Assembly (NCBI GenBank): GCA_964595675.1
Contig: CAZQRR010000002.1
Location: 8,246-72,245 of the forward strand
Length of the DNA stretch: 64,000 nucleotides
Origin: an uncultured Rubrivirga sp.
GTDB taxonomy: Bacteria; Actinomycetota; Actinomycetes; S36-B12
Reading direction: 5' to 3'
The notes under the pieces were generated by a model. The model did no database searches. It worked only from the letters and a program-made list of their open reading frames with translations, and was not told where the DNA came from. The position numbers and the translations under genes are program-made. Below are positions 7,501 through 63,659 of the stretch, in pieces (position 1 is the first letter of the stretch; every line of letters starts with the position of its first letter).

Positions 7501-8559
7501 TCAGGACGTCAGAATCCGCCCCCACGCCTGATCGAGACTGATCTCACCCCGCACCAGACCGATCGCGAGGCCGAGGACGAACAACTCCTGCTCGGGCGAA
7601 AGATAGGTGACCCGCGACACTCCGCGCACTCGCGCGGCGAGGATGGCTCCCGTATGCCGGTCCCAGCGATCGACGTCAACGAGCTCGCTGTCGCGTCGAT
7701 AGGCGCGTTCGAAAGCGCGACGTGCACCATCCAGGGACGTGGCTATCTGGGGGCGCGCTACGGCCTTGCACGCCAGGTGGGTGGACAGGTAGGCAACGTC
7801 AAGTGCCGGGTTCCCGACGTGCGCGACCTCCGCATCGAGCATCCATGCCCCGAATGAGGCGTCGGAGGGGCCCACCAGGACGTTCTTCGGTGAGAAGTCG
7901 CCATGGACAAGGCAGGTGCGGGCCTGGTCTAGCTCATCGGCAAGGGCGCGCAATTCCTGACCGATCTCGGGAACTTCGTTTGCCGTGGCGCGATGGAACG
8001 GGTCGGTGCGCAGGGTGCGCAGGCGATCGCCGGTGAGCAACACGTCGGGCAGAACGCTGGTGTCCCGGCTGTCCATGTGCCAGGCGGCAAGGGTGGTGCC
8101 GAGGTGCTCACCGATACGTGCGAGTCGCCCTGCCATGACGTCGGGGGAATCAGCATCTGCGTCGAGCATCTGACGTCGCCACTCGCTCCATCCGACAGGC
8201 GCGGCCTCAATGACGAGTACGGGAGCCGAGGGATGCCGCCAGACCACGCGCGGTACCGAGTCGGGTGTGATTGCGCCAAACCAAGTTAAGGCCGCGGCCT
8301 CAGCGAAGCCACGCGAGACGTCTGCCTCCCACAGAATAGCTGTACGCAATGTGGCCAAGGGTGCCTTGACCACGAGGCCGTGGGGATTCGCGTGGCGCAC
8401 TCCAGGCATCAGGTCATCCGGGCTAACTCGCCAGACCTCGCAGGACACTCCACCCGTCAAGGGCACGAGCAACGCATCACGGCTCAAGACTTCAGCCTCC
8501 TGCAAGTCTTGCAGCAGCATCTCGACGCCCAGCGCCTCGTCGGTCACAACATCCATCAT
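7501..8559 (-). CDS. Phosphotransferase-family kinase (APH / choline-kinase fold)
   Basis: 352 aa with the Brenner-type motif CLVHGDFSPKNVLV followed by DAEVAHVGNPALD. It is the last gene of the long minus-strand chain. Confidence 0.65.
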   Translation of the reverse strand: MMDVVTDEALGVEMLLQDLQEAEVLSRDALLVPLTGGVSCEVWRVSPDDLMPGVRHANPHGLVVKAPLATLRTAILWEADVSRGFAEAAALTWFGAITPDSVPRVVWRHPSAPVLVIEAAPVGWSEWRRQMLDADADSPDVMAGRLARIGEHLGTTLAAWHMDSRDTSVLPDVLLTGDRLRTLRTDPFHRATANEVPEIGQELRALADELDQARTCLVHGDFSPKNVLVGPSDASFGAWMLDAEVAHVGNPALDVAYLSTHLACKAVARPQIATSLDGARRAFERAYRRDSELVDVDRWDRHTGAILAARVRGVSRVTYLSPEQELFVLGLAIGLVRGEISLDQAWGRILTS

Positions 8560-10467: not shown

Positions 10468-10472
10468 CTTTG

Positions 10473-23489: not shown

Positions 23490-23535
23490 GCGCAGGCTGG
23501 TCGGACGATCGCTCGCCCGCTCCACCCTTCACCCC

Positions 23536-23564: not shown

Positions 23565-23574
23565 CGCCGAGGTA

Positions 23575-23590: not shown

Positions 23591-23604
23591 CGAGGAGTTG
23601 ACCC

Positions 23605-31088: not shown

Positions 31089-31100
31089 CGACGCTCTCTC

Positions 31101-32960
31101 TTACGCCCATCGTTGGTGCTTCTTCTCCGCTTCGTGTTCACCACGCGCCACCCGGACATCCGGCCGCACACTCACCTCGGGCACGCCAACCTCCCACCAC
31201 GCACTGCCCTCGAGCCAGGCGTACTGCTGCACCGGAATCACCAACCCGTAACTGCGATCGGATGCCCGAGCACGTGCGAAGGCAGCAGGAAGGTCTGCGA
31301 TAGACGGTACGAACTCTGCTCCCGCACCCATGGCACTGATGTGTTGGACGAAGTCCACCCGGGCATCCCGCACACGGCGGCTCGACGAGTAGAGGTTGTT
31401 GAACTCCGCTCCGCCCGTGTTGACCTGGAGGCGGTTGATCACCGCGAATCCACCGTTGTCGCACACGATGAAGATCACCTTGTGTCCCGACAGTACGGTG
31501 CTGAATACGTCCGAGTTGGCCATCAGGTACGAGCCGTCCCCCATGAAGGCGAGCACCTCGCCGCCAGCCGCGCGGGCGGAGTCCGCCAAAGCCATGCTCG
31601 CGCCCCACGCACCCGAAAGTTCGTATCCCATTGTGGAGAAACCCCACTCGGAATCGAAGCTGTTCGGGGAAAGTGAGTTCCATGCCATGGTGAGTTCGCC
31701 GATGATGCCGCCAGCGGCGCACACCACGTAGTCTTGAGGCAATGCGAGAGCGTTGCACTCCTGGATGACTTGGCCGTACGAGGGCGGGTCGAGATCGGCC
31801 TTGTCGCGCCAACCCTCGAGATAGCTCGCCCACTCAGCGTTGTGCGCGTGCGCCTTCGTCAGCCAGGCTTCATCGGCTGAGTACGAGCCGAGTCCGGCAT
31901 CAAGGGCCCCAAGACTGACGAGAGCGTCACCAATTACCGCGCAATCGGTGCGCTTCATTGCATCCCACCGATTAGTGTTGATCAGGATGAACCGGGCCTC
32001 CGGTTGACGGAACAGTGTCCACGAACCAGTCGTGAAGTCCTGCAATCTAGTACCAACGGCGAGGATGACGTCCGCTTCCTCGGCAACCTTGTTGGCGGAT
32101 GCAGCTCCGATCACCCCGATCGTGCCGACGAGGTTGGGATTACTCGCTGGGACGGTGGCCTTCCCCGCCGCAGTCTCGGCAATCGGGATTCCGCGGCGGG
32201 CCGCAAAATCAGCCAGGACATCGTTGGCTCGGGAGTATCGGACCCCGCCACCGCTGATGATCAACGGGCGCTTGGCCTTCGACAGGATAGAAATCGCCTC
32301 AGCGATATCCCGATGATCGGGTGCAGGCCTCCGGATGTAGTGGACGCGGGTCTCGAAGAATGCGACCGGGTAGTCGTACGCCTCGGCCTGAACATCTTGG
32401 GGCAGTGCGAAGAAGGCGGGTCCACAGTCGGCCGGGTCCAGCATTGTCGCCAATGCCTGGGGAAGCGAGCGGATGATCTGCTCCGGTCGGTTGATGCGAT
32501 CCCAGTAACGGACCACCGGCTTGAATGCATCGCAGATCGACACGGTAGGGTCGACGAACGTCTCGATCTGCTGGAGGACAGGATCCACAGCACGATGTGC
32601 GAAGTAGTCCCCGCACAGCATCAAAAGCGGAATGCGGTTGACGCTCGCCACGGCCGCGGCCGTCATCAAGTTGCTGCAGCCAGGCCCCACGGACGTGGTG
32701 GCGATCATGATCTGTTGGCGAAGCATTGCTTTCGAGTAGGCGATTCCAGCCAATGCCATGTACTGCTCGTTTTGACCACGCCACGTCGGAAGATGGTCCT
32801 GAACCGGCTCGAGTGCCTCCGCCAGAGACGTCACGTTGCCGTGGCCGAAGATGCCGAATGTCCCAGCAAAAACCGGGCTTTCAACTCCGTCGACGTCGAT
32901 TTGCTGAGCAATTAACCATCGAACGATTGCCTGGGCCGTAGTCAGACGTACCGTGTCCAT
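31101..32960 (-). CDS. iolD: IolD-like TPP-dependent enzyme (3D-(3,5/4)-trihydroxycyclohexane-1,2-dione acylhydrolase family)
   Basis: ATG 32960 behind the RBS GGAGGAG. The N-terminus VRLTTAQAIVRWLIAQQIDVDGVESPVFAGTFGIFGHGNV closely parallels the IolD N-terminus. TPP motif GDGSYLM...CDNGGF. 620 aa. The ORF-track start at 33065 is rejected. Confidence 0.7.
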   Translation of the reverse strand: MDTVRLTTAQAIVRWLIAQQIDVDGVESPVFAGTFGIFGHGNVTSLAEALEPVQDHLPTWRGQNEQYMALAGIAYSKAMLRQQIMIATTSVGPGCSNLMTAAAVASVNRIPLLMLCGDYFAHRAVDPVLQQIETFVDPTVSICDAFKPVVRYWDRINRPEQIIRSLPQALATMLDPADCGPAFFALPQDVQAEAYDYPVAFFETRVHYIRRPAPDHRDIAEAISILSKAKRPLIISGGGVRYSRANDVLADFAARRGIPIAETAAGKATVPASNPNLVGTIGVIGAASANKVAEEADVILAVGTRLQDFTTGSWTLFRQPEARFILINTNRWDAMKRTDCAVIGDALVSLGALDAGLGSYSADEAWLTKAHAHNAEWASYLEGWRDKADLDPPSYGQVIQECNALALPQDYVVCAAGGIIGELTMAWNSLSPNSFDSEWGFSTMGYELSGAWGASMALADSARAAGGEVLAFMGDGSYLMANSDVFSTVLSGHKVIFIVCDNGGFAVINRLQVNTGGAEFNNLYSSSRRVRDARVDFVQHISAMGAGAEFVPSIADLPAAFARARASDRSYGLVIPVQQYAWLEGSAWWEVGVPEVSVRPDVRVARGEHEAEKKHQRWA

Positions 32961-32986
32961 GACTCCTCCACTTCGTTCACCGCCGG

Positions 32987-33775
32987 CTAGTAGAGGCCAC
33001 CCGCGGCCTCTGATGCCTGTTCCCGGGCGCGGGCAACCTGCTGCGTGTATCCAGACCCCAACCACACCGAGTCACTACCGATGGAACACATCCGGTACCC
33101 CAGCGCAACCTTGTCCCGGGCATCGGCACCCGACAGGGAGTGGATCGCGGGTATGCGCGCATGTGACCGACAGCCATCGACGATGCGCGACAGGAGAGCG
33201 TCCAATTCCGGAGAGGACTTCCCGGGTGGCATTCCGTGAGTCAGCGCGAGATCAGCTGGACCGACATAGACCCCGTCGATTCCGGGGACCGCGAGGATGC
33301 CGTCAAGGTTATCCATCGCTTCCTTCGTCTCTATCTGGACCAGACACAGGATCTGCTGATTCACCCACTCCGTGTCGATGTCGATGTGCAGTCGAGCCCG
33401 GATGGGGCCATAACTGCGCTCACCCAGGGGTGGGTACCGGCAGGAACGAACCGCATCCTCGGCCAGCGCAACCGTGTTGACCATCGGGAAGATCAGGCCC
33501 ATCGCCCCGGCATCGAGTGCGCGCTGCGCGATCCCGTGGTCACCGAAGGGGATGCGGACCATCGGCACGGCACCCGCCAGGCTAATCGCCTGCAGCATCG
33601 ACACCAGATCGGAGTAACCGGTCAGGCCGTGTTGCATGTCCACGACCGCGTAGTCGACTCCACTGGATCCAACTAACTCCGCTGCGAAGGAAGTCGGCAA
33701 GGTGCACCAACCGCCGAAAAGGGGTTCTTGGGTCTGCAGTCGAGAACGGAGAGGGTTTCCCTTGGGCGATGCCAT
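32987..33775 (-). CDS. HpcH/HpaI-family aldolase (2-keto-3-deoxy-acid aldolase type)
   Basis: 262 aa with GVDYAVVDMQHG...PMVRIP...GLIFPMV...IETKEA...GVYVGPADL. Confidence 0.8.
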   Translation of the reverse strand: MASPKGNPLRSRLQTQEPLFGGWCTLPTSFAAELVGSSGVDYAVVDMQHGLTGYSDLVSMLQAISLAGAVPMVRIPFGDHGIAQRALDAGAMGLIFPMVNTVALAEDAVRSCRYPPLGERSYGPIRARLHIDIDTEWVNQQILCLVQIETKEAMDNLDGILAVPGIDGVYVGPADLALTHGMPPGKSSPELDALLSRIVDGCRSHARIPAIHSLSGADARDKVALGYRMCSIGSDSVWLGSGYTQQVARAREQASEAAGGLY

Positions 33776-33852
33776 TAGGGGCCACGCTCCTCACCTGTAC
33801 GCCTATATAAAGGTGTCGAATCGGCTGCAATGATCCCAAGGCGAGAATTCGT

Positions 33853-33867
33853 TGTCAACTGTTGACA
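33853..33867. promoter_or_regulatory. Perfect palindrome TGTCAAC-T-GTTGACA (operator candidate)
   Basis: A 15-bp perfect dyad that abuts the GntR stop codon (33868-33870) and lies about 80 nt upstream of the aldolase start at 33775. An AT-rich CTATATAAA box is at 33803-33811. Confidence 0.6.
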
Positions 33868-34602: not shown

Positions 34603-34691
34603 GTCGGCTTCTCCATTCCTCACGTCTTGCAACACTGGACGGCACAGTATCGCGATCGCTGCCCTACTCGCCAATCAAGAGGGACCAGCAT

Positions 34692-35675: not shown

Positions 35676-35681
35676 GGTAGG

Positions 35682-43022: not shown

Positions 43023-43051
43023 GAAATGCTCGCTCCTTCGTATGCGCTCAT

Positions 43052-43083
43052 CTAGGATTGCAGATTGTCAACAGAATCCTAGT
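43052..43083. promoter_or_regulatory. Nested palindrome CTAGGATT-N16-AATCCTAG enclosing ATTGTCAACAG
   Basis: The 8-bp arms lie at 43052-43059 and 43076-43083. The TGTCAAC-family core is at 43064-43074. It sits in the 98-bp divergent gap between the dehydrogenase (-) and the aldolase (+). Confidence 0.5.
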
Positions 43084-43120
43084 CACGAACGTCGCGGCTG
43101 GTCGGCCCTTTGGAGGAATC

Positions 43121-43912: not shown

Positions 43913-44844
43913 GCCGAGAGCGCGTCCTGGTCATGGACTATGCATGGCCCGATCTTGCACTCGAGACGCAGATCCTCGACGAGGCAGGATTCGATCTGAT
44001 ATCGGTCGTCGATGACGGCCGTCCGGCGATCGATCTCGTAGCAGACTGTTCAGCGATCATGACGTGCTGGGCCCAGGTCCCTGCCGAACTCCTACGAGCA
44101 GGGCGCAACCTTCGGACAGTCGCGAGATTCGGTGTGGGTACGGACAACATCGATGTAGTTGAGGCTCGTCGACTCGGTCTGGAGGTCACATACGTCCCGG
44201 ACTACTGCATGGAGGAAGTCTCGGACCACGCCGTCGGCTTGGTCCTGGGATGGTTTCGCGGAATCGTTCCGCTGGATCGGATGATCCGAGCCGGGGCTTG
44301 GGACCCATCCGCAGCGAAACTCCGTCGAATGTCCTCGCTGACCATCGGAGTGTGGGGCTACGGACGCATCGGGCGCCGAACTGCGGAGAAGTTCGCCGCC
44401 CTCGGCTGCCGGGTAGTCGCCCATGATCCGTTCGCTCCGGCCGGCCCACCGGCCGAACTCATGGAACTCGATCGGCTCCTGGGCGAATCGGACGTGGTCA
44501 CGCTCCACATGCCCGCATCGCCTGTTGATCCGTTGGTCACCGAATCGGTCCTGAAGCAGATGAAGCCCGATGCGCTGCTCGTGAACACCGCCCGGGGCAC
44601 GTTGGTAGACAATGATGCACTCATCGCAGCGCTTGCACGCGGCGACATTGCTGGCGCTGCGCTCGACGTGGTCGCGGGCGAACCCGACATACCGGCAGCA
44701 CTGGTAAACGATCTCAACACGATCCTCACTCCGCATGTTGCTTTCTCATCACGTGAATCCGTGATTGAACTGCGCACGCGAACTGCCGAAGATGTGGTCC
44801 GGGTCCTTCGCGGTGACCAAGCACGCAACCCCTTCCCTGGGTGA
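43909..44844 (+). CDS. D-isomer-specific 2-hydroxyacid dehydrogenase family protein (CtBP/PGDH-like)
   Basis: ATG 43909 overlaps the upstream TGA (ATGA). GVWGYGRIGRRTAEK, NTARGTLVDN, LTPHVAF. The ORF-track start at 43690 is rejected. Confidence 0.8.
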   Translation: MSRERVLVMDYAWPDLALETQILDEAGFDLISVVDDGRPAIDLVADCSAIMTCWAQVPAELLRAGRNLRTVARFGVGTDNIDVVEARRLGLEVTYVPDYCMEEVSDHAVGLVLGWFRGIVPLDRMIRAGAWDPSAAKLRRMSSLTIGVWGYGRIGRRTAEKFAALGCRVVAHDPFAPAGPPAELMELDRLLGESDVVTLHMPASPVDPLVTESVLKQMKPDALLVNTARGTLVDNDALIAALARGDIAGAALDVVAGEPDIPAALVNDLNTILTPHVAFSSRESVIELRTRTAEDVVRVLRGDQARNPFPG

Positions 44845-46650: not shown

Positions 46651-47463
46651 ATGAAATTGGTCGCCTACCTTCGTGAGGGCCTCCCTGCAGTGGGGGTGGT
46701 GGAGTTCGGAACTGTCTTTCCCATCGCGCCCCGAGATGAATTCTTCGAAGACGCCGACTATTGGCTCGCGCAACCCCGGAACACCGATTCCGGAACTTCC
46801 GTGCAGGACGTCATCCAGATCCCAGCGGTGCGCAGTGACTGCAACGTCGTATGCGTTGGCCTGAACTACCGAGATCATGCCGACGAGTCGGGCTTGGATG
46901 TCCCCACGAGTCCTTCGATCTTCGCTCGTTGGGTTTCTACGCTGAGTGTCGACGGAAGTCCGGTAGCCGTTCCTCCGTGTGAGGAGGGCTTGGACTGGGA
47001 AGTAGAACTCGCAGTGATCATCGGCAAGCAGCTCGACCGACATTCGGGGCCGGCTCAGCCCAGCGACATCCTCGGCTACTCCGTGTTCAATGACATAAGT
47101 GCGCGCGGCCGTCAGTTTGACACCTCCCAGTGGTCCCTCGGCAAGAACGTGGACTCCTCCGGACCACTCGGTCCTGTCCTCGTGACTGCCGACGAGTTCA
47201 TTGGGTGGCCTCTGTTGAATCTCCAACTGCGCGTCAACGGACAGGTCAGGCAGACCGGAAACACCGGGGAGATGATCCATTCCATCCCTGACTTGATCGC
47301 CTACGTGACGCAGACCCTCACCCTCCGACCTGGGGACCTGATTGCAACGGGGACGCCATCCGGAGTGGGATTCAAGTGCGATCCGCCGATTCTGCTGCAC
47401 CCAGGTGATGTCGTGGAGGCAGAAATCGAATCGATCGGCGTCTTGCGTACACCGATCATCTAG
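46651..47463 (+). CDS. Fumarylacetoacetate hydrolase (FAH)-family protein
   Basis: 270 aa with VCVGLNYRDHADESG...WEVELAVIIG...DISAR...PGDLIATGTPSGVG. Confidence 0.8.
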   Translation: MKLVAYLREGLPAVGVVEFGTVFPIAPRDEFFEDADYWLAQPRNTDSGTSVQDVIQIPAVRSDCNVVCVGLNYRDHADESGLDVPTSPSIFARWVSTLSVDGSPVAVPPCEEGLDWEVELAVIIGKQLDRHSGPAQPSDILGYSVFNDISARGRQFDTSQWSLGKNVDSSGPLGPVLVTADEFIGWPLLNLQLRVNGQVRQTGNTGEMIHSIPDLIAYVTQTLTLRPGDLIATGTPSGVGFKCDPPILLHPGDVVEAEIESIGVLRTPII

Positions 47464-50105: not shown

Positions 50106-50138
50106 CGGACCTCCCGAGTTATCGCACATCTATGAAAA

Positions 50139-50150
50139 TTGCTGACAATC
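50139..50150. promoter_or_regulatory. Near-palindrome ATTGCTGACAAT (operator-like) in a divergent gap
   Basis: It has one mismatch from ATTGTCGACAAT. It lies in the 110-bp gap between the TIM-barrel (-) and dehydrogenase (+) genes. CTATAG boxes are at 50173-78 and 50196-201. Confidence 0.4.
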
Positions 50151-50215
50151 TACACTCAACCCTCGTTTGTGGCTATAGTCCGATCGATTCAGGAACTATA
50201 GGGAGGAGTGACAGC

Positions 50216-51211
50216 ATGGCGGTCGCGGTTCCCTTGCAGACTGCCCTCGCCTCGACCGCGACGCTCTTCGGCGAAGTCGGCCTCGATCTTGGCCTGGCAC
50301 CCGGACTTCGCATCCACCCGATTCCCGCGAACGGGCGCATCGATGACCGAGTGCGCGATCTAGCGGATTCCTTCGCCGTGGTGGCCGGAGCCGAGCCCTA
50401 TCCGGGTGAACTTCTCGAACGGCTCCCTGGGCTGTGCCTGATCGCCCGATCCGGGGTCGGATTCGACCAGATCGACCTCGAGGCCGCCTCCGACCTGGGC
50501 ATTCACGTCACCACCACACCCGGGATGAACGCCCAGGGAGTCGCCGAGCACGTGGTCACCTTGTTGCTGCACCTCACCCATCGTGTGGCTCACTACAACG
50601 CCCGGGTGCGGAACGGTGAATGGCGCGATGGGGAATTCTTCGACGAGATTCAGGGCATGACCGTGGGAATCATCGGTCTGGGGCGCATCGGTCGCGCGAC
50701 GGCGAATTTGCTGAACGCCTTTGGCGCACAGGTGCTCGCCTACGACGTCGGACCGATCCAGGATCCCCCAGACCACGTCACGGTCGTCTCGAGCATCGCC
50801 GACCTCCTGCCGCGGTGTCAGGCGATCTCCATACACACACCCTTGCTGGACTCGACGCGAGGCCTCATCGGCGGGGACGAACTCGCCCTGCTCCCTCGGG
50901 GCGCGTACCTGGTAAACAGCGCACGCGGAGGGGTGGTCGACGAGAAAGCATTGGCCTCAGCGCTCCGCACGGGCCACATTGCCGGTGCCGGTCTCGATGT
51001 ACTCGCCCAAGAGCCACCTGCGTCGGATAACCCGCTGCTCGCGATCGAAACGTGCGTCTTCTCCCCGCATTCGGCATCTCTCGGCGCCCGCACGATTGAG
51101 CGGATGACGCGCATGATCGCCACGCAATTGAATTCCGTCGCAGATGGCTCCACCCCTGCAGGATTGGTCAACGCGCCCGTGCGACCCCGCTTTCCGATCC
51201 TGATCGAGTAA
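50216..51211 (+). CDS. D-isomer-specific 2-hydroxyacid dehydrogenase family protein
   Basis: ATG 50216 behind GGGAGGAG. GIIGLGRIGRATANL, NSARGGVVDE, FSPHSAS. The ORF-track start at 50132 is rejected. Confidence 0.8.
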   Translation: MAVAVPLQTALASTATLFGEVGLDLGLAPGLRIHPIPANGRIDDRVRDLADSFAVVAGAEPYPGELLERLPGLCLIARSGVGFDQIDLEAASDLGIHVTTTPGMNAQGVAEHVVTLLLHLTHRVAHYNARVRNGEWRDGEFFDEIQGMTVGIIGLGRIGRATANLLNAFGAQVLAYDVGPIQDPPDHVTVVSSIADLLPRCQAISIHTPLLDSTRGLIGGDELALLPRGAYLVNSARGGVVDEKALASALRTGHIAGAGLDVLAQEPPASDNPLLAIETCVFSPHSASLGARTIERMTRMIATQLNSVADGSTPAGLVNAPVRPRFPILIE

Positions 51212-56557: not shown

Positions 56558-56588
56558 GAGATCGATTCCACATGGGATCGATCTCACA
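56555..56588. promoter_or_regulatory. 12-bp perfect inverted repeat TGTGAGATCGAT-N10-ATCGATCTCACA
   Basis: The arms lie at 56555-56566 and 56577-56588. The left arm overlaps the candidate -10 hexamer and the right arm abuts the RBS AAGGAGGA (56588-95). Confidence 0.6.
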
Positions 56589-56598
56589 AGGAGGACGA

Positions 56599-57477
56599 AT
56601 GCCTACGGTTCTGACCGACGCCCAGATGGCCGACTACGAGCGCGACGGGTTCCTGGTGATTCCCGACGTGATCTCCCCTGAGGAGATCGCCGATCTCCAG
56701 GCGGTCACCAACGAGTTCGTCGAGCGTTCGCGTAACTTCACCGAGCACACCGAGGTGTTTGACCTCGAGCCCGCGCACACCCCGGAGAAGCCCCTGCTGC
56801 GCCGGGTCAAGACTCCCGAGAAGTGGCACCCCACGTACGCGAGCATGGTGCGCCATCCGAAGATCCTGGGAGCTCTCGAGGATCTCTGGGGTACGGGAAT
56901 CCGCTACCAGACATCCAAGCTCAACATGAAGGTCGCCGGCCACGGATCCTCACTGGAGTGGCACCAAGATTGGGCCTTCTACCCGCACACGAATGAGGAT
57001 CTCGCGGTGGTCGGCATCATGATCGATGACATCGACGAAGACAACGGAGCGATGATGATCGTGCCGGGCTCTCACCGCGGACCCATCGAGGATCACTCCT
57101 ACGACGGAATCTTCACGGGCGGCATCGATCCAACCAAGGCCAGCACCGACTTCTCGAAGGCGATCTCCGTCTGCGGAAAGGCCGGCTCGATCAGCATCCA
57201 TCACGTGCGTGCCATCCACGGTGGGCCCGCCAACCGCTCGGGCCGCGATCGCCGCTACTTCCTCCTTCAGTACACCGCAGCCGACGCGTGGCCGCTCATG
57301 GACAAGATGGATTGGAACTCCTGGCGCGCGAATCTGCTCACGGGCGAGGAGACCTGGACCCCTCGCATGGAGGCACTCCCGGTTCGGCTTCCGCTACCCG
57401 AGCCGACGCACGGGGGTTCGATCTATGAGAACCAGCGCGATTTGAAGTCCCGTTACTTCGAAGATGCCGTCTCCTAG
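56599..57477 (+). CDS. Phytanoyl-CoA dioxygenase (PhyH)-family Fe(II)/2-oxoglutarate oxygenase
   Basis: ATG 56599. YERDGFLVIP, an LEWHQDWAF (HxD) motif and ...HHVRAIHGG. 292 aa. Confidence 0.75.
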   Translation: MPTVLTDAQMADYERDGFLVIPDVISPEEIADLQAVTNEFVERSRNFTEHTEVFDLEPAHTPEKPLLRRVKTPEKWHPTYASMVRHPKILGALEDLWGTGIRYQTSKLNMKVAGHGSSLEWHQDWAFYPHTNEDLAVVGIMIDDIDEDNGAMMIVPGSHRGPIEDHSYDGIFTGGIDPTKASTDFSKAISVCGKAGSISIHHVRAIHGGPANRSGRDRRYFLLQYTAADAWPLMDKMDWNSWRANLLTGEETWTPRMEALPVRLPLPEPTHGGSIYENQRDLKSRYFEDAVS

Positions 57478-58510
57478 TTCGACGCTGGCACCCCGGGTCA
57501 CGACCCTGATCGACGTGGCCCGGGATGCCGGGGTCTCGCGCGCGACTGCATCCCGGGTCCTTACCGGTTCACCCCGGGTGTCGCCCAGCGCACGTGATCG
57601 GGTGCTCGCATCGGCGGAGCGTCTGCAGTACCGGGTCAACGCTGCCGCACGCAGCCTGCGTACCGCCCGTACTGGTCTCGTCGGGCTCCTGATTCCCGGC
57701 TTCCGCAACGATCTCTACGGTCCACTCGCGGATCGTCTCGACGAGCGACTCCGCGAAAGAGGGCTCAGCGTCGTGATCGGCAGTTCAGGCTGGTCCGCCG
57801 ACGGAGACCTCCGGGTACTCGAGTCCTTCGCAGCACAACGACTCGACGCGGTGATCATCGCCCCACGCTCAGATCGCTCAAAGGCGCTTGCTGCCTACCT
57901 CGGCGGTCTCAGCTGCCCCGCGGTCTTCTTGGACCGCGATTTCGTGGGTTTGCAGCGCGACGCAGTCGTGACTGATCTTCGTGCAGGCATCACCGAGGCG
58001 ATGGGGGCCTTGGCCGCTCTCGGCCACCGTCGCATCGCCGTGAGCGCCTATGGCGCCGAACTCCGACCAGGGCGTGAGGTTCGTGCCGGCTTCGCAGATG
58101 CCATCGCTCGCTTCGGTCTCGAGAACGACCCGACTCTTCTCGTGGAGATGTCCGACCTGAACGCTGAGGCCGGCGAAGCGGTGGCCGAAAGAGTAATCGG
58201 GTCGGACGCGACCGCTGCCGTGATCGGTGGGCCCACGTCCTTGCTCGCGCGGGCACTGCGCCGATTACGCGAGCTCCTCGGACCCGATCCGTTTCCGGGC
58301 AGGCTGTCCGTCGTCGCGGTGGGTGACGAGGCTCTCGCCGACATACACGAGCCTGCGCTTGCGCTTGTGACGCGGCCGGTGGAACGCATTGCGGATGCGG
58401 TCGCAGACCAACTCCTGCGTCGACTCGAAGAGCCGTCGAGCCCGGTCGAGTCGATCACGATTCCCCTGGCGTTTCGACCGGGCCCATCGATCGGGCCGCC
58501 GACCTACTAA
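57464..58510 (+). CDS. LacI-family transcriptional regulator
   Basis: HTH TLIDVARDAGVSRATASRVLTG...VSPSARDRVLASAERLQYRVNAAARSLR plus a periplasmic-binding-fold domain. The start is uncertain and the ORF overlaps the PhyH 3' end. Confidence 0.8.
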   Translation: MPSPSSTLAPRVTTLIDVARDAGVSRATASRVLTGSPRVSPSARDRVLASAERLQYRVNAAARSLRTARTGLVGLLIPGFRNDLYGPLADRLDERLRERGLSVVIGSSGWSADGDLRVLESFAAQRLDAVIIAPRSDRSKALAAYLGGLSCPAVFLDRDFVGLQRDAVVTDLRAGITEAMGALAALGHRRIAVSAYGAELRPGREVRAGFADAIARFGLENDPTLLVEMSDLNAEAGEAVAERVIGSDATAAVIGGPTSLLARALRRLRELLGPDPFPGRLSVVAVGDEALADIHEPALALVTRPVERIADAVADQLLRRLEEPSSPVESITIPLAFRPGPSIGPPTY

Positions 58511-59310
58511 CCCGGGGGCATCGGTGGATCGCCGGCACCGGGGATGCTCTGATCGAAGTGCACGATCGACCCCGTCATCAGACCGGATTGCGGTCCGGCG
58601 AGGAAGGCGATCGCGCGGGCCAACTCGTCGACCTTGATGAGACGCCCGAAGGGCTGCATCACTTCGGCGCGCGCCAACCAGCCAGCGTCCTCGCCGTGGT
58701 GGTCGAGTCGCGTCGCATGCTCCCCCGGGGTGTCGATCCATCCAGGCCCGATTCCATTGACGCGTATTCGATCGCGAACAACCGCATACGCGGCGTTACG
58801 GGTCACGGCGTTGAGGGCAGCCTTAGACGCTGAGTAGGCGGCGAGGAAGTCGGGACCACCCGTGGCGACGACTGAGGAGACGTTCACGATGCTTCCGCCG
58901 TTTCCATTCCGGCGCATCACCGCGATCGCCTCGCGCATCAACACCATGGGGCCACGCACATTGATGGCGAAGACCTCGTCGATGTCCTTCGCCAAGGAAT
59001 CCACGATGGAGCCACGCTTGGTCGTGCCACCCGCATTCACCAGAACATCGACGCGTCCGAACTTTCGATCTGCCGCCGCGATCACCGACTCGCACTCAGA
59101 CTCTGATTCCAAACGAGCCTGCACGAACACGGCGGGAGCGCCAGCTGCCTCCAGGGAGTTGCGGACGGATTCGCCTCGCTCGGGATTGCGTCCACAGATG
59201 ACGATCCCAGCCGCCCCGTTGATCGCGAAGTGGCGCGCGGTGGCCTCGCCAACGCCCTGGGTTCCCCCGGTGACGACGCACACCTTGCCGTCGAAGTCAT
59301 GATCGGACAT
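58507..59310 (-). CDS. SDR-family oxidoreductase
   Basis: FDGKVCVVTGGTQGVGEA, NAGG, YSASKAA, GPGWIDTPG. 267 aa. Its 3' end overlaps the LacI 3' end by 4 nt. Confidence 0.8.
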   Translation of the reverse strand: MSDHDFDGKVCVVTGGTQGVGEATARHFAINGAAGIVICGRNPERGESVRNSLEAAGAPAVFVQARLESESECESVIAAADRKFGRVDVLVNAGGTTKRGSIVDSLAKDIDEVFAINVRGPMVLMREAIAVMRRNGNGGSIVNVSSVVATGGPDFLAAYSASKAALNAVTRNAAYAVVRDRIRVNGIGPGWIDTPGEHATRLDHHGEDAGWLARAEVMQPFGRLIKVDELARAIAFLAGPQSGLMTGSIVHFDQSIPGAGDPPMPPG

Positions 59311-59324: not shown

Positions 59325-60611
59325 TCAGGTGCGGGGAGCCAGTGCTGCGGCACCAGCGTAGGCAAGGTCATGCGCCTGCTCGAGGTAAAGCAAGCGATTC
59401 CATTTGGCTGTTCGCTCCGAACGCATTGTTGAGCCGACCTTGATCTGGCCCGCGCCGGTTCCCGTCGCGAGATCCGCCAGCCACGTCTCCTCCGTCTCCC
59501 CGGACCGCGCCGACACCACCGGCGCCCACCCGACCGACAGCGCCCGCTGCACTACACGAAGAGCCTGTTCGAGTGTCCCGGCCTGGTTCGGCTTCGCCAG
59601 GACAGAGTTCGCCTCCTCGCGCTCGATTCCCATGTCCAGCCGGGTTACCGTGGTGACGTAGCGATCGTCGCCGAGGATCTGGGTCGAGTTCACGAGCATC
59701 GCGAGACGCGACCACCCCTCGTCGTCGTCCTCCCCTGCACCGTCCTCGATCGAGACGATCGGGTAATCCCGACGCCAGCCGATCACACGATCGACGAACT
59801 GGGAGGGGGTCAGGGTCTCCCCGCCCATGCGGTAACCACCAGGAACCTGGCACTCGGTGGCGGCGACGTCGAGCGCGATCGACATTTCCGCCCCAGGTCG
59901 AAGACCGGCGCGACTGATCCCATCGACAACCGCCTCGATCGCCCGTTCATTTGTCGCGAACGGAGCCGCCAGGCCACCTTCGTCGGCGACGAGTGCCGTA
60001 GTAAAACCCATGCCGTCGAGAACTTCCCGCGTTCCGGCGCGCACCTTCCAACACCACTCGATCGCTTGCGCGAACGACTCGGCCCCCACCGGGACGACAA
60101 GGACGTCCTGGATGTCGATCAGACTTCCCGCATGTGCACCGCCGGAGATGATGTTCACCATCGGGAGAGGGATGCTGGGCGTCGCACCCGTGCGACCAGC
60201 CAGCCACCGCCACGGCTCCTCAGCAGCAGCATCCGCGGCCGCTAGCCACGCGGCGATACTCACCGCCGTGCCCACATTCCCACCCAGCGATGACAGCTGC
60301 GGATTGGAGTCCAGTGCACGGAGCGCTGCATCAATGTCAGCCGGGTTGTTGGCGTCGCGACCGATCAATGTCTCGCGGACTCGGTTCTCCATCGACCGTG
60401 CATGGCCGCGGACCGATTTCCCGCCATACTCGTCACGATTTCCATCGCGAATGAAGATCGCCTCATGGGAGCCAGCGCTGGCACCTGCCGGAGCGAGTGC
60501 GACTCCGACACCGCCACTGACGACGACGCGTGCTGAGATCGTCGGATTGCCGCGCGAATCAAGCGCCTGCCACAGGCCAACTTCGCAGATGGGGAGAGTC
60601 ACGTAATCCAA
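59325..60611 (-). CDS. Enolase-family protein (divergent paralogue of phosphopyruvate hydratase)
   Basis: 428 aa with DSRGNPTISARV, GASAGSHEAIFIRDG, ADEGGLA, ALDVAATE, SIEDG, LGDD, KPNQAGT and SARSGETEE. It deviates from the canonical FQEFMI (here IQDVLV) and SHRSGETED (here SAR...). Confidence 0.7.
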   Translation of the reverse strand: MDYVTLPICEVGLWQALDSRGNPTISARVVVSGGVGVALAPAGASAGSHEAIFIRDGNRDEYGGKSVRGHARSMENRVRETLIGRDANNPADIDAALRALDSNPQLSSLGGNVGTAVSIAAWLAAADAAAEEPWRWLAGRTGATPSIPLPMVNIISGGAHAGSLIDIQDVLVVPVGAESFAQAIEWCWKVRAGTREVLDGMGFTTALVADEGGLAAPFATNERAIEAVVDGISRAGLRPGAEMSIALDVAATECQVPGGYRMGGETLTPSQFVDRVIGWRRDYPIVSIEDGAGEDDDEGWSRLAMLVNSTQILGDDRYVTTVTRLDMGIEREEANSVLAKPNQAGTLEQALRVVQRALSVGWAPVVSARSGETEETWLADLATGTGAGQIKVGSTMRSERTAKWNRLLYLEQAHDLAYAGAAALAPRT

Positions 60612-60615: not shown

Positions 60616-61503
60616 TCAGGCCATACCGATAGCGGACATGTAACGGCGCGTGCTCACGGCGATCGGGTATGGACGATCGAACGCGGTTGGGTACAGATCC
60701 TGCTCGACGATCCCGATTCCATCGAAACCGACCTCATCGAGAACTTGCCGGAAGGCCACGAAATCAATCACACCGTCCTTGGGTTCAGTGAAGGCCCCCA
60801 TCTTCACTGCCTCAGCGAATGGGATCCCCGCGGCCGCGACCTCCGCACGAATCCCTTGGTCGACGCTCTTGATGTGCAGGTAGGGAATCCGATCGTGGTG
60901 GTTGCGCATGAAGGACACGGGATCACCGCCGCAATAGGCGTGGTGGCCCGTGTCCAAGCACATGCTCACTAGTTCCGGATCGGTCATCTCGAGATAGCGC
61001 TCGATCTGATCCTCCCGCTCGATGTTGGTCTGGGCGTGCGGATGGAATGCCGCCTTTAGGCCGTATCTCTCGGAGACATATGCACCGATGCGATTGGAGT
61101 TTCCAACAAGGGTGGCCCACTCCTTCTCCGAGAGTTCCGAATCGGCAATCTGCTCGCCAGTGAAGAGGTCGGTGTACATACTCTCGATGAGTACACAGAA
61201 CTCGGCACCAAGGGCCTGGAGCAGGGGCGCCGCGCTGTCGATCTCAGCTATGCGTTCTTCGTAGGCGCCCGGGGCGTGCAAATTGCCGAAGATGAAGCCA
61301 CCGCTGAGCTGGAAGTCGTAGGCATCCAGCAGACCCCTCAAGTGCTCAGGGTCGGTCGGAAGATAGCCGTAGGGGCCGAGTTCGATCGTGCGATACCCAG
61401 CACGACTCGCCTCATCGAGGAATTGCTCGAAGGGTGGCTGATGTGGGTCACTGGGAAACCAGACACCCCACGAATCCGGTCCGATGCCCAGTTCGAACCT
61501 CAT
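60616..61503 (-). CDS. Sugar phosphate isomerase/epimerase-family TIM-barrel protein
   Basis: ATG 61503 behind GAGGAGG (MRFELGIGPDSWGVWF...). ...FHPHAQT...DTGHHAY...HIKS. The ORF-track start at 61530 is rejected. Confidence 0.7.
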   Translation of the reverse strand: MRFELGIGPDSWGVWFPSDPHQPPFEQFLDEASRAGYRTIELGPYGYLPTDPEHLRGLLDAYDFQLSGGFIFGNLHAPGAYEERIAEIDSAAPLLQALGAEFCVLIESMYTDLFTGEQIADSELSEKEWATLVGNSNRIGAYVSERYGLKAAFHPHAQTNIEREDQIERYLEMTDPELVSMCLDTGHHAYCGGDPVSFMRNHHDRIPYLHIKSVDQGIRAEVAAAGIPFAEAVKMGAFTEPKDGVIDFVAFRQVLDEVGFDGIGIVEQDLYPTAFDRPYPIAVSTRRYMSAIGMA

Positions 61504-61571
61504 GCGGCCTCCTCGCAGGAAAGATTGCAAACAGTCAGCACTAGGCTACCAGTGTCATTACACTTCGCACG

Positions 61572-62354
61572 GTGACTGGTCGTAGCCCCACGGAATTCAA
61601 ATCCGCGGTTCGTCGGGGCGAATTTCTACTCGGCACCTGGGTCACCTCCAGCGACTCGATGATCGTCGAGGTTGTTGCATCAGCTTCCTTCGACTTCCTG
61701 ATCCTCGATGCCGAGCACGGACCCGTCACTCCCGCGTCGGCACTCACGACGCAGATTGTCGCCGACCGGACCGGGGTACCCCTGATAGTCCGTGTCCCAT
61801 CGATCGATCCCGTCCCGATCATGGCTGCCCTGGACTTCGGCGCTGCAGGGATTCTCGTTCCGCGGGTCACCTCCGTGGACGAGGCCGAGATTGCGGCACA
61901 ACTTGCGTACTACCCACCTGCCGGCTCGCGGGGATTCGGTCCGCGCCGCGTCTCGAACTACTTGCGTGACGTCGATTCCTACGTGGCGCGGGCGACAGAG
62001 TCCACGACGGTGGTCGTCCAGATCGAGACCCAGGGTGCGCTAGATGACCTCGATGCGATCCTTGCCCTCCCCCAGGTCGATGCGATCCTCGTGGGCCGCA
62101 ACGATCTCGCGATGGAACTTGGGCTCCCGCGCGACCCGAACAATGCAGACCTCAGCGCCATCACATCGGACGTCTTGACGCGCGCCCGCGCCGCAGGCAA
62201 AGCTGCGGGCCTGGCTACTTCGGCTCTGGCCAATGCCGCAATGACAGCGCAGGAACTGGGAGCCACCATGGTCGCGGCGGGTATCGATCTTGAGTTTCTG
62301 GCGCGCGCAGTCGATGGCTTCATCTCCGACATCCGGTCGAGAGGTGCACAGTGA
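61572..62354 (+). CDS. HpcH/HpaI-family aldolase
   Basis: SFDFLILDAEHG...LIVRVP...GILVPRV...IETQGA...AILVGRNDL. 260 aa. Confidence 0.8.
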   Translation: MTGRSPTEFKSAVRRGEFLLGTWVTSSDSMIVEVVASASFDFLILDAEHGPVTPASALTTQIVADRTGVPLIVRVPSIDPVPIMAALDFGAAGILVPRVTSVDEAEIAAQLAYYPPAGSRGFGPRRVSNYLRDVDSYVARATESTTVVVQIETQGALDDLDAILALPQVDAILVGRNDLAMELGLPRDPNNADLSAITSDVLTRARAAGKAAGLATSALANAAMTAQELGATMVAAGIDLEFLARAVDGFISDIRSRGAQ

Positions 62355-62364
62355 GGAGAGTCGC

Positions 62365-62763
62365 GTGAAGTTATGGAACGTCGGCGGCAAAGTCCCCGAC
62401 CTGGACGCCGAAGAAGCTTTCCTCCGCGCCATGGGGGCTGACGTCTCCGGTCGACAACCGGTCTTCGTCAATGGACAACAAGGGGAGCTCCTGTTCACCC
62501 AAGTCGGCGATACCCGGGTGCTTGTCTTCGAGGAGGTCAACTACGAGCGCGAGCTGGAACATCCGCTCAAATTCGGATGGACCCACATAGTCTTCGAGGT
62601 CGACGACTTCGACTCGGCTTTCGATCGACTTCACGGCGCTGGCGGCAAGGTGATTCAAGGTCCGGCAGTCGTGGATGCAACCTTTTCGCGCCGAAAGATC
62701 GCATTCTTCGAAAGTCCAGGGGGATGCATTTACGAAGTCTTCAGCGAACTAACGCGAGACTGA
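62365..62763 (+). CDS. VOC / glyoxalase-family protein (small)
   Basis: GTG 62365 behind GAGGAGAG. ...GWTHIVFEVDDFDSAFDRL...FFESPGGCIYEV. The ORF-track start at 62290 is rejected. Confidence 0.6.
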   Translation: MKLWNVGGKVPDLDAEEAFLRAMGADVSGRQPVFVNGQQGELLFTQVGDTRVLVFEEVNYERELEHPLKFGWTHIVFEVDDFDSAFDRLHGAGGKVIQGPAVVDATFSRRKIAFFESPGGCIYEVFSELTRD

Positions 62764-62774
62764 CCAAGCGGACG

Positions 62775-63659
62775 ATGACGACACAACCCTGGCACGCGTC
62801 TGCGACCTTCGCCTATTCCTACAACATGGTGACCTACGGCAGCGAGGATCCCCGAAGGGGGCTCGATCGGATTGCAAATGCCGGGTACGAGCGAGTGGAA
62901 TTATCGGGGGATCCAGTCGGCATGACAGCCGGGCAACTGCGCGAGGCGATCAACCAACGAGGACTCGGCGTGAGTTCGATCTCCTCGCTGCTCGGCCCAG
63001 ATCGAGACCTCTGCCATGTCGATCCGGCAATACGTCGCAACGCGCGCGCGTATCTCCTGGGTCTGATCGAGATGGCGAACGTGGTTGGTTCGCCGATCAT
63101 CAATGTCCACCCGAGCTCGGTGAATCGCACCGAGGTTCTGTCAAGTACCGCCCAAGAGTGGGAGTGGTCGGTGACCGGGCTGCGCGAACTTGCCGAGCAA
63201 GCCGATGGTGTCTGCCAACTGGCCATCGAGCCCTGGAACCGATACGAGACCCATCTGATCAATACCGTCGACCAAGCGGTCGACTTAGTTCGCGCCATCG
63301 GCCACCCATCGGTCTGCGTAATGGGGGATACATTCCACATGGGTATCGAGGAAAGCGATCCGATCGGGACCCTTCGGCGGGCCGCTCCCGTTCTTCGGCA
63401 CATGCACCTAGCTGACAACACCCGAGCCGCACCCGGAACCGGCACTACGGACTTCGAACCGTATGTGCGCACCCTCATCGAAATCGACTACCCCGGGACG
63501 GTCACCTTCGAATTATTTCCCGCCAAGGCACGCCCACTCGAGTCTGTGCTCAGCGGAGAGGCCCCGGAGTTCCTGGATGAGTTCACTCGGTCATCAGTTG
63601 AGCATCTACGGGCCGTCGAGCGCAAAGTTCGCGAAGACCTAATCGGAATCATCGTTTAG
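62775..63659 (+). CDS. Sugar phosphate isomerase/epimerase-family TIM-barrel protein
   Basis: ATG 62775 (MTTQPWHASATFAYSYN...). ...GYERVELSG...IEPWNRYET...GDTFHM...HMHLADN. The ORF-track start at 62577 is rejected. Confidence 0.7.
   Translation: MTTQPWHASATFAYSYNMVTYGSEDPRRGLDRIANAGYERVELSGDPVGMTAGQLREAINQRGLGVSSISSLLGPDRDLCHVDPAIRRNARAYLLGLIEMANVVGSPIINVHPSSVNRTEVLSSTAQEWEWSVTGLRELAEQADGVCQLAIEPWNRYETHLINTVDQAVDLVRAIGHPSVCVMGDTFHMGIEESDPIGTLRRAAPVLRHMHLADNTRAAPGTGTTDFEPYVRTLIEIDYPGTVTFELFPAKARPLESVLSGEAPEFLDEFTRSSVEHLRAVERKVREDLIGIIV

What the first reader, a model, noticed from the sequence alone, without database searches (positions are those of the whole stretch)
59325..60611. Divergent enolase paralogue embedded among SDR and TIM-barrel genes
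Seen: the protein keeps many enolase landmarks (SRGNPT, ADEGG, ALDVAATE, SIEDG, GDD, KPNQAGT, SGETE). By eye it reads IQDVLVVP where canonical enolases have FQEFMI.P (Glu to Asp). It also reads SARSGETEE where they have SHRSGETED (His to Ala). It lies 14 nt upstream of an SDR gene (58507-59310) and 4 nt downstream of a TIM-barrel gene, not in a glycolytic context.

Established: those canonical positions contribute to substrate binding and catalysis in phosphopyruvate hydratase.

Inference: this may be a neofunctionalised enolase acting on a different 2-phospho- or 2-hydroxy-acid. The housekeeping eno is presumably elsewhere.
Basis: partly seen in the sequence, partly recalled or inferred. Interest (0 to 1): 0.6.

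Follow-up and report, generated by a model that had tools for sequence, protein, structure and literature searches.

The report
Kinase-partnered enolase paralogue with altered pocket
This gene encodes a member of a large, apparently unstudied branch of the glycolytic enzyme enolase that keeps its catalytic machinery but has a remodelled substrate pocket and is usually encoded next to, or fused with, a small-molecule kinase, so it probably dehydrates an unusual phosphorylated sugar-acid fragment and is not the housekeeping enzyme that databases call it.

Summary
ORF 59325-60611 (-) is a full two-domain enolase with base K345, acid E211, all metal ligands and the phosphate ligands intact, but with E168D and H373A (yeast numbering). 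It is not a one-off. All 120 closest database proteins (86-49% identity) carry the same pair, apart from one with Val at 168. The pair co-varies with N155S/G, G209A, M170L and T397V/I, all around the substrate C3 side.

The signature motif occurs in at least 120 species genomes across about ten bacterial phyla, and the clade also sits on haloarchaeal and Rhodococcus plasmids. In 59 of 75 readable loci an APH-family kinase gene lies directly upstream, often overlapping. Kinase::enolase fusion proteins exist.

The window is a minority arrangement: IolE-like TIM barrel, then the enolase, then an SDR. Its orthologous kinase lies 51 kb away (7501-8559) and a bona fide IolD at 31101-33065.

Best reading: the dehydratase half of a kinase-plus-enolase cassette that turns a free 2,3-dihydroxy acid, most likely glycerate left over from sugar-acid or cyclitol breakdown, into an enol phosphate such as PEP. 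The substrate, including its stereochemistry, is unresolved. I found no literature on it. RefSeq labels relatives as glycolytic eno.

The parts
59325..60611 (-). D/A-type enolase paralogue. Probable true start is GTG 60602, giving 425 aa. Signature residues are S156, D169, L171, A209, A368 and V392 in its own numbering, equal to yeast N155S, E168D, M170L, G209A, H373A and T397V.
60616..61530 (-). IolE-like xylose-isomerase-fold TIM-barrel protein, immediately upstream in the same operon. It occupies the position the kinase holds in most of the clade.
   Evidence: Pfam AP_endonuc_2. TIGR04379 IolE 182 bits, below the 290 cutoff. Best PDB match is IolE 3cny at 103 bits. The same partner sits upstream in relatives L001, L007, L131, L105 and L125.
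58507..59310 (-). SDR oxidoreductase (PRK06198 type), 14 nt downstream in the same operon.
   Evidence: 348 bits against a 240 cutoff. Best PDB match is 4nim at 284 bits. Syntenic in L001-L003.
61572..62354 (+). HpcH/HpaI-family class II pyruvate aldolase, divergently transcribed from the enolase operon.
   Evidence: Syntenic in L001. An HpcH aldolase follows the enolase directly in L131.
62290..62763 (+). Glyoxalase/VOC-fold protein. The true start is probably later; the homologue in L001 is 132 aa.
62577..63659 (+). Second TIM-barrel protein, IolO/sugar-epimerase-like. The true start is probably later.
   Evidence: NF041099 IolO 131 bits, below the 300 cutoff.
57464..58510 (+). LacI-family regulator, convergent with the SDR. 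Syntenic in the closest relatives.
56572..57477 (+). PhyH-family Fe(II)/2-oxoglutarate dioxygenase. Syntenic in the closest relatives. Role unknown.
7501..8559 (-). APH-family kinase, an orthologue of the kinases coupled to D/A enolases elsewhere. It is the only one in the window and lies 51 kb from the enolase, next to a GntR/FCD regulator.
   Evidence: tblastn. Pfam APH. 57% identical to the in-cluster kinase of L131, and it matches all 69 enolase-coupled kinases at a median of 33% identity.
31101..33065 (-). Bona fide IolD, the ring-opening TPP hydrolase of inositol catabolism. Its orthologue lies inside the enolase operon in relative L131.
   Evidence: TIGR04377 760 bits against a 715 cutoff. 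L131 layout.
50132..51211 (+). D-2-hydroxyacid dehydrogenase (PGDH/glyoxylate-reductase-like), one of four in the window. This family recurs beside D/A enolases.
   Evidence: Neighbour tallies.
46651..47463 (+). FAA-hydrolase family protein. This family is the second most frequent non-kinase neighbour of D/A enolases.

Best explanation
The gene encodes a catalytically competent enolase-family lyase from a distinct, ancient subfamily, here called D/A-type for Asp168/Ala373. It works together with a dedicated APH-family small-molecule kinase.

Proposed mechanism: the kinase phosphorylates the 2-hydroxyl of a free 2,3-dihydroxy carboxylic acid. The D/A enolase binds that 2-phospho acid through the two Mg2+ ions, R374/S375 and K396. 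K345 removes the C2 proton, and hydroxide is expelled from C3 with help from E211. The product is an enol phosphate.

The simplest substrate that fits every genomic context is glycerate. Glycerate is left over when sugar acids or cyclitols are cleaved to pyruvate plus a C3 fragment, and the product would then be PEP. The pocket around C3 is remodelled (E168D, H373A, N155S/G, G209A, T397V/I), and the cell keeps a private enolase for the job. Both facts suggest the true substrate is not ordinary D-2-phosphoglycerate. It may be L-2-phosphoglycerate or a C3-substituted homologue.

In this window the enzyme sits in an IolE-like / enolase / SDR operon within an inositol-type and sugar-acid catabolic island. 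Its kinase is unlinked but present.

Shown: family membership, residue pattern, clade breadth, kinase linkage and fusion, plasmid location, and context. Inferred: the order kinase then enolase, phosphorylation at O2, the elimination chemistry, and the identity of the acid.
For: The catalytic and metal residues are intact, while E168D and H373A are fixed in the 120 closest homologues apart from one with Val at 168. These co-vary with N155S/G, T397V/I, G209A and M170L. In the best PDB homologue the E168 and E211 equivalents contact 2-PGA/PEP directly, K345 is the base and E211 the acid (PMC4450660).

A clade-specific DNA motif hits at least 120 species genomes across many phyla. An APH kinase sits directly upstream on the same strand in 59 of 75 loci and is the only strongly conserved neighbour (65 of 116 loci). 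Of 57 junctions, 50 lie within 20 nt and 25 allow a 4-nt overlap. Kinase::enolase fusions P0133 and P0164 exist.

The same overlapping pair occurs on haloarchaeal megaplasmids and in an FAH, 2-hydroxyacid-DH, kinase, enolase operon on R. opacus plasmid pRho-G13. Stand-alone pairs occur in Thermoleophilia.

Recurrent further neighbours are SDR, FAA-hydrolase (closest to L-2,4-diketo-3-deoxyrhamnonate hydrolase 8gsr), MR_MLE and IlvD/EDD dehydratases, sugar ABC transporters, lactonase, 2-hydroxyacid dehydrogenase and HpcH aldolase.

The window keeps an orthologous kinase. Relative L131 has IolE-like, enolase, HpcH, IolD and SDR, with the kinase 4.6 kb away. No conserved position separates window-type from kinase-adjacent D/A enolases.
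Against: There is no biochemical data. The protein clears NCBI's equivalog cutoff for true enolase, and E to D is conservative, so it may still turn over D-2-phosphoglycerate.

D-specific 2-hydroxyacid dehydrogenases and GarL-like aldolases in the neighbourhoods would yield D-glycerate, not L-glycerate. In this window the kinase is 51 kb away and an IolE-like protein takes its place, so the enzyme here might receive its substrate differently.

Monophyly of the clade is only weakly resolved. 33 of 36 sequences cluster together, but the exact split has 0/50 bootstrap support, and mean identity is 43% within the clade against 40% between clades.

Which hydroxyl the kinase phosphorylates is unknown. 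Its nearest named family, methylthioribose kinase, is very distant.
Confidence: 0.55

Rival explanations
1. It is an ordinary enolase isozyme: a catabolic copy that converts D-2-phosphoglycerate to PEP. It is co-expressed with a new type of D-glycerate 2-kinase so that glycerate from sugar-acid or glyoxylate-type pathways enters lower glycolysis. The D/A changes tune kinetics, inhibitor resistance or channelling, not specificity.
For: It scores above the TIGR01060 equivalog cutoff, and all catalytic, metal and phosphate ligands are retained. D-specific 2-hydroxyacid dehydrogenases, HpcH (GarL-like) aldolases and Hyi/IolO-like TIM barrels nearby would make D-glycerate. E. coli's route from glycerate runs through a 2-kinase to 2-PG and then enolase (PMC4378991, listed).
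Against: A housekeeping enolase would make a private copy redundant, yet the pair is kept together, overlapped or fused across bacterial phyla and into haloarchaea. Six pocket positions, including two residues that are invariant in all 92 canonical representatives, are fixed in a different state. That looks like a change of specificity. E168 contacts the substrate directly.
Confidence: 0.2
2. It dehydrates a longer 2-phospho-2,3-dihydroxy acid, such as a C4-C6 aldonate or aldarate 2-phosphate (for example a 5-deoxyglucarate-type product downstream of IolD). The kinase and enolase together replace a conventional acid-sugar dehydratase. The resulting 2-keto-3-deoxy acid equivalent is cleaved by the adjacent HpcH aldolase.
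For: The changes E168D, H373A and N155S/G all shrink side chains on the C3 side of the pocket. The window-type operons combine IolE-like, IolD, HpcH aldolase and SDR with the enolase. IlvC-like and 2-ketoaldonate-reductase-like genes that make (2R)-2,3-dihydroxy acids are neighbours in haloarchaea and Rhodococcus.
Against: Many kinase-type clusters already encode MR_MLE or IlvD/EDD dehydratases. Stand-alone pairs in Thermoleophilia have no aldolase or phosphatase to process such a product. No enzyme that would take the phosphate off the enol phosphate is conserved nearby.
Confidence: 0.2
3. It is a decayed or moonlighting enolase with little or no catalytic role, for example a structural or regulatory protein.
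For: Two substrate-contact residues that are invariant in canonical enolases are replaced.
Against: K345, E211, D246, E295, D320, S39, R374, S375 and K396 are 100% conserved across the clade down to 49% identity. The replaced positions are themselves fixed, which indicates purifying selection. The operon coupling to a kinase and to catabolic enzymes argues for an enzymatic role.
Confidence: 0.03

Closest known systems
Canonical enolase / phosphopyruvate hydratase (EC 4.2.1.11; TIGR01060; e.g. yeast Eno1, E. coli Eno, Chloroflexus 4yws)
   Same: Same two-domain fold family and about 40-47% identity. Same Mg ligands, base K345, acid E211, phosphate ligands R374/S375, and K396.
   Different: E168D, H373A, N155S/G, G209A, M170L and T397V/I. 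The context is not glycolytic. It is coupled or fused to an APH kinase and can be plasmid-borne.
Glycerate 2-kinase (GarK/GlxK) followed by housekeeping enolase in E. coli glucarate/allantoin catabolism (PMC4378991)
   Same: The same proposed logic: a free hydroxy acid from sugar-acid cleavage is phosphorylated on O2 and dehydrated to PEP. GarL-like aldolases are nearby.
   Different: The kinase here belongs to the APH (protein-kinase-like) fold, not the GlxK or MOFRL families. The enolase is a dedicated, pocket-altered paralogue, not the housekeeping enzyme.
Non-phosphorylative L-rhamnose/L-fucose 'diketo-hydrolase' pathways (L-2,4-diketo-3-deoxyrhamnonate hydrolase, PDB 8gsr)
   Same: Kinase-type clusters carry the same enzyme set: lactonase, MR_MLE dehydratase, SDR and an FAH hydrolase closest to 8gsr.
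   Different: Those pathways end in pyruvate plus L-lactate, with no kinase or enolase step described. The pair here would be an added terminal module for a hydroxylated C3 product.
Canonical myo-inositol pathway IolG-E-D-B-C-J
   Same: The window has a bona fide IolD, two IolE-like proteins, IolG-like GFO/IDH/MocA oxidoreductases and an IolO-like protein. Relative L131 places IolD in the enolase operon.
   Different: No IolB, IolC or IolJ was seen among the genes scanned. An enolase paralogue, an HpcH aldolase and an SDR occupy their place.
PhpH, the enolase homologue that makes carboxyphosphonoenolpyruvate in phosphinothricin biosynthesis (recalled from memory, not tested)
   Same: A precedent for an enolase-subgroup member acting on a non-2-PGA substrate.
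   Different: PhpH sits in a phosphonate biosynthetic cluster. The annotated part of this window shows no sign of phosphonate genes, and the remodelled residues here face C3 rather than the phosphate.

Membership tests
Enolase (phosphopyruvate hydratase, EC 4.2.1.11) | Enolase_N plus Enolase_C two-domain architecture, and an HMM equivalog score above cutoff | tested here: met
   PF03952 1e-30 and PF00113 9e-68. TIGR01060 375 bits against 300.
Enolase (phosphopyruvate hydratase, EC 4.2.1.11) | Mg(I) ligands D246/E295/D320, Mg(II) ligand S39, base K345, acid E211, phosphate ligands R374/S375, K396 | tested here: met
   All are conserved in the alignment with yeast and E. coli enolase.
Enolase (phosphopyruvate hydratase, EC 4.2.1.11) | Invariant substrate-pocket residues E168 and H373, plus N155 and G209 | tested here: not met
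   The window protein has D, A, S and A at these positions. All 92 canonical representatives have E and H, 98% have N155 and 100% have G209.
Enolase (phosphopyruvate hydratase, EC 4.2.1.11) | Interconverts D-2-phosphoglycerate and PEP at physiological rates | not testable with these tools
   Needs an enzyme assay or complementation.
Enolase (phosphopyruvate hydratase, EC 4.2.1.11) | Housekeeping role: sole or essential copy, chromosomal core context | tested here: inconclusive
   There is no second enolase in the 64-kb window and the rest of the genome is unavailable. Clade members occur on R. opacus and haloarchaeal plasmids, which argues for an accessory role.
D/A-type kinase-coupled enolase clade (unnamed; defined here) | Signature [S/G]155-D168-L170-A209-A373-[V/I]397 | tested here: met
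   The window protein has S-D-L-A-A-V.
D/A-type kinase-coupled enolase clade (unnamed; defined here) | APH-family kinase gene immediately upstream on the same strand, or fused | tested here: not met
   An IolE-like TIM barrel is upstream in the window. This minority arrangement is shared with L001, L007, L105, L125 and L131.
D/A-type kinase-coupled enolase clade (unnamed; defined here) | An orthologous APH kinase encoded in the same genome or island | tested here: met
   Window 7501-8559 is 57% identical to the in-cluster kinase of L131 and matches all 69 coupled kinases.
MR/MLE-type acid-sugar dehydratases (other enolase-superfamily subgroups) | MR_MLE_N/MR_MLE_C domains, a single Mg2+, non-phosphorylated acid-sugar substrates | tested here: not met
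   Pfam assigns Enolase_N and Enolase_C only. The Mg(II) ligand S39 and the phosphate ligands are retained.

The most novel reading that the evidence does not exclude
The D/A enolases are stereo-inverted enolases. On this reading, the APH-type kinase makes L-2-phosphoglycerate from L-glycerate, the leftover of L-configured sugar-acid cleavage. The remodelled pocket lets the enzyme dehydrate this enantiomer to achiral PEP. That would define a previously unknown two-step L-glycerate assimilation route and a second physiological reaction in an enolase subgroup for which I know of only one other proposed function (PhpH, recalled from memory).
Probability: 0.25. Interest if true: 0.85.

Novelty: new variant of a known kind. 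Interest (0 to 1): 0.66.

Why it matters
Enolase is among the best-studied enzymes. As far as I know, its own subgroup within the enolase superfamily is treated as essentially single-function, and automated annotation names every member 'glycolytic eno'.

This work points to a large, old subfamily that spans many bacterial phyla and haloarchaea, is often plasmid-borne, has a fixed alternative pocket, and has a dedicated kinase partner that is sometimes fused to it. If that holds, a second physiological reaction has been hiding inside the family.

It would add a missing terminal step to non-phosphorylative sugar-acid and cyclitol catabolism in abundant environmental lineages (freshwater acI Actinobacteria, Chloroflexota, Planctomycetota). 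It would assign a function to an orphan APH-kinase subfamily. It would also correct a systematic misannotation that inflates glycolytic gene counts in metabolic reconstructions. The question is directly testable with two recombinant proteins.

Tried and rejected
None found a description of this clade or of an APH-type hydroxy-acid kinase paired with an enolase. One search was swamped by human ENO2 papers. PMC12994016 and PMC8305020 looked promising but were irrelevant.

Pseudogene or decay: rejected, because the catalytic residues and the variant residues are all fixed.

Alignment artefact: rejected, because the motifs are visible directly and three independent alignments agree.

Glyoxylate-carboligase 'glycerate pathway' reading of the recurrent TPP enzyme: rejected, because it is IolD.

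Sulfolactate, sulfite or other bulky anionic leaving groups at C3: considered. They are disfavoured because D168 and E211 remain acidic, and no sulfonate-pathway or sulfite-export family appeared among the annotated neighbour clusters.

Strict monophyly: a crude NJ bootstrap gave 0/50 for the exact split, so I rely on nearest-neighbour purity instead.

Same-genome canonical enolase: this could not be tested, because the single genome-collection scan went on the clade motif. That motif required a Trp that the haloarchaeal members lack, so it under-samples the clade.

Structure prediction was not run. The tools return no coordinates, so it could not address pocket geometry.

Rfam and tRNA scans of the window found nothing.
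Full report
**Observation.** The ORF at 59325-60611 (minus strand) is real. It carries both enolase domains (Pfam Enolase_N 1e-30, Enolase_C 9e-68). It scores 375 bits on NCBI's eno equivalog TIGR01060, whose cutoff is 300, and it matches solved enolases at up to 320 bits (4yws). S39, H159, Q167, E211, D246, E295, D320, K345, R374, S375 and K396 are unchanged. The listed TTG start is probably wrong. The closest relatives are 425 aa and begin at the equivalent of GTG 60602. The operon spacing is as described, with a good ribosome-binding site before the SDR. No other enolase lies in the window.

**The substitutions define a clade.** All 120 best hits in a 5.8-billion-protein search, from 86% down to 49% identity, carry D168 and A373, apart from one with Val at 168. 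An exhaustive search of 1.84 billion cluster representatives returned 41 D/A-type, 92 canonical and 19 other sequences among its best 150 hits plus the two reference sequences in the alignment. In these, the pair co-varies with N155S/G, T397V/I, G209A and M170L. These positions flank the catalytic loop, the general acid E211 and K396. PMC4450660 documents that K345 is the base and E211 the acid. It also shows that in 4yws the substrate is held by the equivalents of E168, E211, K345, R374 and S375. The role of H373 rests on my own recollection of the yeast literature.

With the six diagnostic columns removed, 33 of 36 D/A sequences still have a D/A nearest neighbour, and 88 of 89 canonical sequences have a canonical one. 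A crude NJ tree groups 33 of 36 D/A sequences, with other degenerate variants nested among them, but the exact split has no bootstrap support. Mean identity is 43% within D/A, 44% within canonical and 40% between them. The split is therefore old and only modestly resolved.

**Distribution.** The hits include:
- Actinomycetota: Streptomyces, Nocardia, Frankia, Kribbella, Microbacterium, Arthrobacter, Nanopelagicaceae, Gaiellales, Acidimicrobiia.
- Chloroflexota, Planctomycetota, Verrucomicrobiota, Bacteroidota, Acidobacteriota, Myxococcota and SAR324, among others.

The closest genome locus (L105, 85% identity) is a lake-water Actinomycetota MAG, so the window comes from an uncultured aquatic actinobacterium. 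A tblastn search of plasmids found D/A enolases on haloarchaeal megaplasmids (Halomarina, Haladaptatus) and on the 1.1-Mb linear plasmid pRho-G13 of Rhodococcus opacus. The haloarchaeal proteins have the signature but lack the Trp that my motif required, so the clade is broader than the motif scan sampled. RefSeq names them 'eno, phosphopyruvate hydratase, glycolytic process'.

**The conserved partner is a kinase.** In 59 of 75 genome loci with readable upstream sequence, the gene immediately upstream on the same strand is an APH-family (PF01636) kinase. Unbiased clustering of all 630 neighbouring ORFs shows that this kinase is the only strongly conserved neighbour: 65 of 116 loci, 63 of them at position -1. 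Of 57 junctions, 50 lie within 20 nt and 25 permit the 4-nt start/stop overlap. That figure is biased toward small gaps because I chose the start nearest the kinase stop. PGAP independently annotates 4-nt overlaps in the haloarchaea. Full-length kinase::enolase fusion proteins exist (P0133, 745 aa; P0164, 770 aa). The kinase has no equivalog. Its best named relative, methylthioribose kinase, scores 35-62 bits against a 275 cutoff, and PDB matches are marginal.

**Wider context.** Beyond the kinase, the recurrent neighbours are:
- SDR (20 loci) and FAA-hydrolase (14 loci).
- MR_MLE (9 loci) or IlvD/EDD (6 loci) acid-sugar dehydratases.
- MalK-type sugar-ABC ATPase (8 loci), DUF4432 (6 loci) and 2-hydroxyacid dehydrogenase (6 loci).

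Lactonase, GntR regulators, and DHDPS or HpcH aldolases appear in Pfam-annotated contigs. The FAA-hydrolase of one such cluster is closest to the solved L-2,4-diketo-3-deoxyrhamnonate hydrolase (8gsr, 223 bits). That enzyme splits a diketo acid into pyruvate plus an L-2-hydroxy acid. R. opacus pRho-G13 has a compact operon of FAH, 2-hydroxyacid-DH, kinase and enolase. In Thermoleophilia the pair stands alone among unrelated genes.

**The window's arrangement.** Here, and in its closest relatives at 61-86% identity (L001-3, L007, L105, L125, L131), the -1 position is held by an IolE-like TIM barrel (TIGR04379 182 bits, below 290; best PDB 3cny). An SDR follows, and an HpcH aldolase lies nearby. 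In L131 the operon reads IolE-like, enolase, HpcH aldolase, IolD, SDR, and the APH kinase is still in the cluster 4.6 kb downstream. The window contains:
- A bona fide IolD (31101-33065; 760 bits against 715).
- A second IolE-like gene (22497-23489).
- IolG-like oxidoreductases.
- Four HpcH aldolases and four 2-hydroxyacid dehydrogenases.
- An FAA-hydrolase.

It also has one APH kinase at 7501-8559. That kinase is 57% identical to the L131 kinase and matches all 69 enolase-coupled kinases. So both halves of the module are present in this genome, but unlinked. No conserved position distinguishes window-type from kinase-adjacent D/A enolases, so the chemistry should be the same.

**Interpretation.** Five things are shown. 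The protein is a catalytically equipped enolase-family enzyme. Its C3-side pocket is remodelled in a fixed way. It belongs to a broad clade. It is genetically coupled to a kinase. It sits in catabolic, sometimes plasmid-borne, contexts.

The rest is inferred. The kinase makes a 2-phospho-2,3-dihydroxy acid, and the enzyme converts it by the standard enolase elimination to an enol phosphate. Glycerate is the one substrate that fits all contexts: the leftover C3 unit after FAH or aldolase cleavage, and stand-alone cassettes that feed directly into PEP. A private, pocket-altered enolase is hard to justify if the intermediate were ordinary D-2-PG, which the housekeeping enzyme would consume. That favours L-2-phosphoglycerate or a C3-substituted homologue. 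However, the associated D-specific dehydrogenases and GarL-like aldolases point to D-glycerate. The smaller side chains at 155, 168 and 373 would also suit longer acids. I therefore commit to the kinase-plus-enolase cassette mechanism (about 0.55) and leave the substrate open. My rough split is L-glycerate 0.25, D-glycerate isozyme 0.2, longer acids 0.2, and the remainder other.

**Novelty.** Ten full-text searches found no description of this subfamily or of the pairing. The library holds open-access papers only, so a prior report cannot be excluded. I classify it as a new variant of a known kind.

Noticed in passing
representative proteins P0153, P0186, P0190, P0136: Further enolase-family variants lack the general acid itself. 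P0153, P0186 and P0190 have T or S at E211, together with D168, Q or R at 373 and F397. P0136 has G211 and I373. They tend to nest near the D/A group and look like additional uncharacterised subfamilies.
   Followed up: no
P0134 and P0129: P0134 is a 696-aa fusion of a MerR HTH domain with a canonical enolase. P0129 is an 888-aa protein with a canonical enolase at its C-terminus and an unassigned 430-aa N-terminal part.
   Followed up: no
window 22497-26578: A second IolE-like TIM barrel (22497-23489) is followed by a split transketolase (23605-25394) and a cytochrome P450 (25391-26578). P450s also sit beside D/A enolases in L001, L004 and L007.
   Followed up: partly
window 30267-36473 and 42039-44844: Repeated modules pair an HpcH aldolase with a D-2-hydroxyacid dehydrogenase. 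There are four of each in the window, next to IolD, a GntR regulator and an Opp/Dpp-type ABC transporter. This is a paralogue-rich catabolic island whose substrates are unknown.
   Followed up: partly
window 8562-13609: The orphan APH kinase is flanked by a GntR/FCD regulator, an acetoacetate-decarboxylase-family protein, a glyoxalase-fold protein, an SDR and a 730-aa fused E1 alpha/beta (transketolase-like) dehydrogenase. This is an unusual set that may hint at what the kinase sees in this genome.
   Followed up: no
L135 4515-7862 and L136 5230-6924 (haloarchaeal plasmids): Thermosome (TCP-1/cpn60) genes lie directly beside the kinase-enolase pair on both the Halomarina and the Haladaptatus megaplasmids.
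   Followed up: no
L132 7708-8373, L134 5287-5937, L135 14092-14751: An RraA-family gene (the HMG/CHA-aldolase / oxaloacetate-decarboxylase family) recurs close to the pair in Thermoleophilia and in Halomarina. In the haloarchaea, a cupin gene immediately follows the enolase and an IlvC-like gene is convergent with it.
   Followed up: no
window 5004-6614: A 536-aa protein with an N,N-dimethylformamidase beta-subunit-like C-terminal domain (PF20254, 207 bits) sits next to an amidohydrolase_2 gene.
   Followed up: no
L135, L136 annotation; RefSeq/PGAP names D/A-type proteins 'eno, phosphopyruvate hydratase' with the GO term glycolytic process, because they clear the TIGR01060 equivalog cutoff. 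This is probably a systematic over-annotation.
   Followed up: partly
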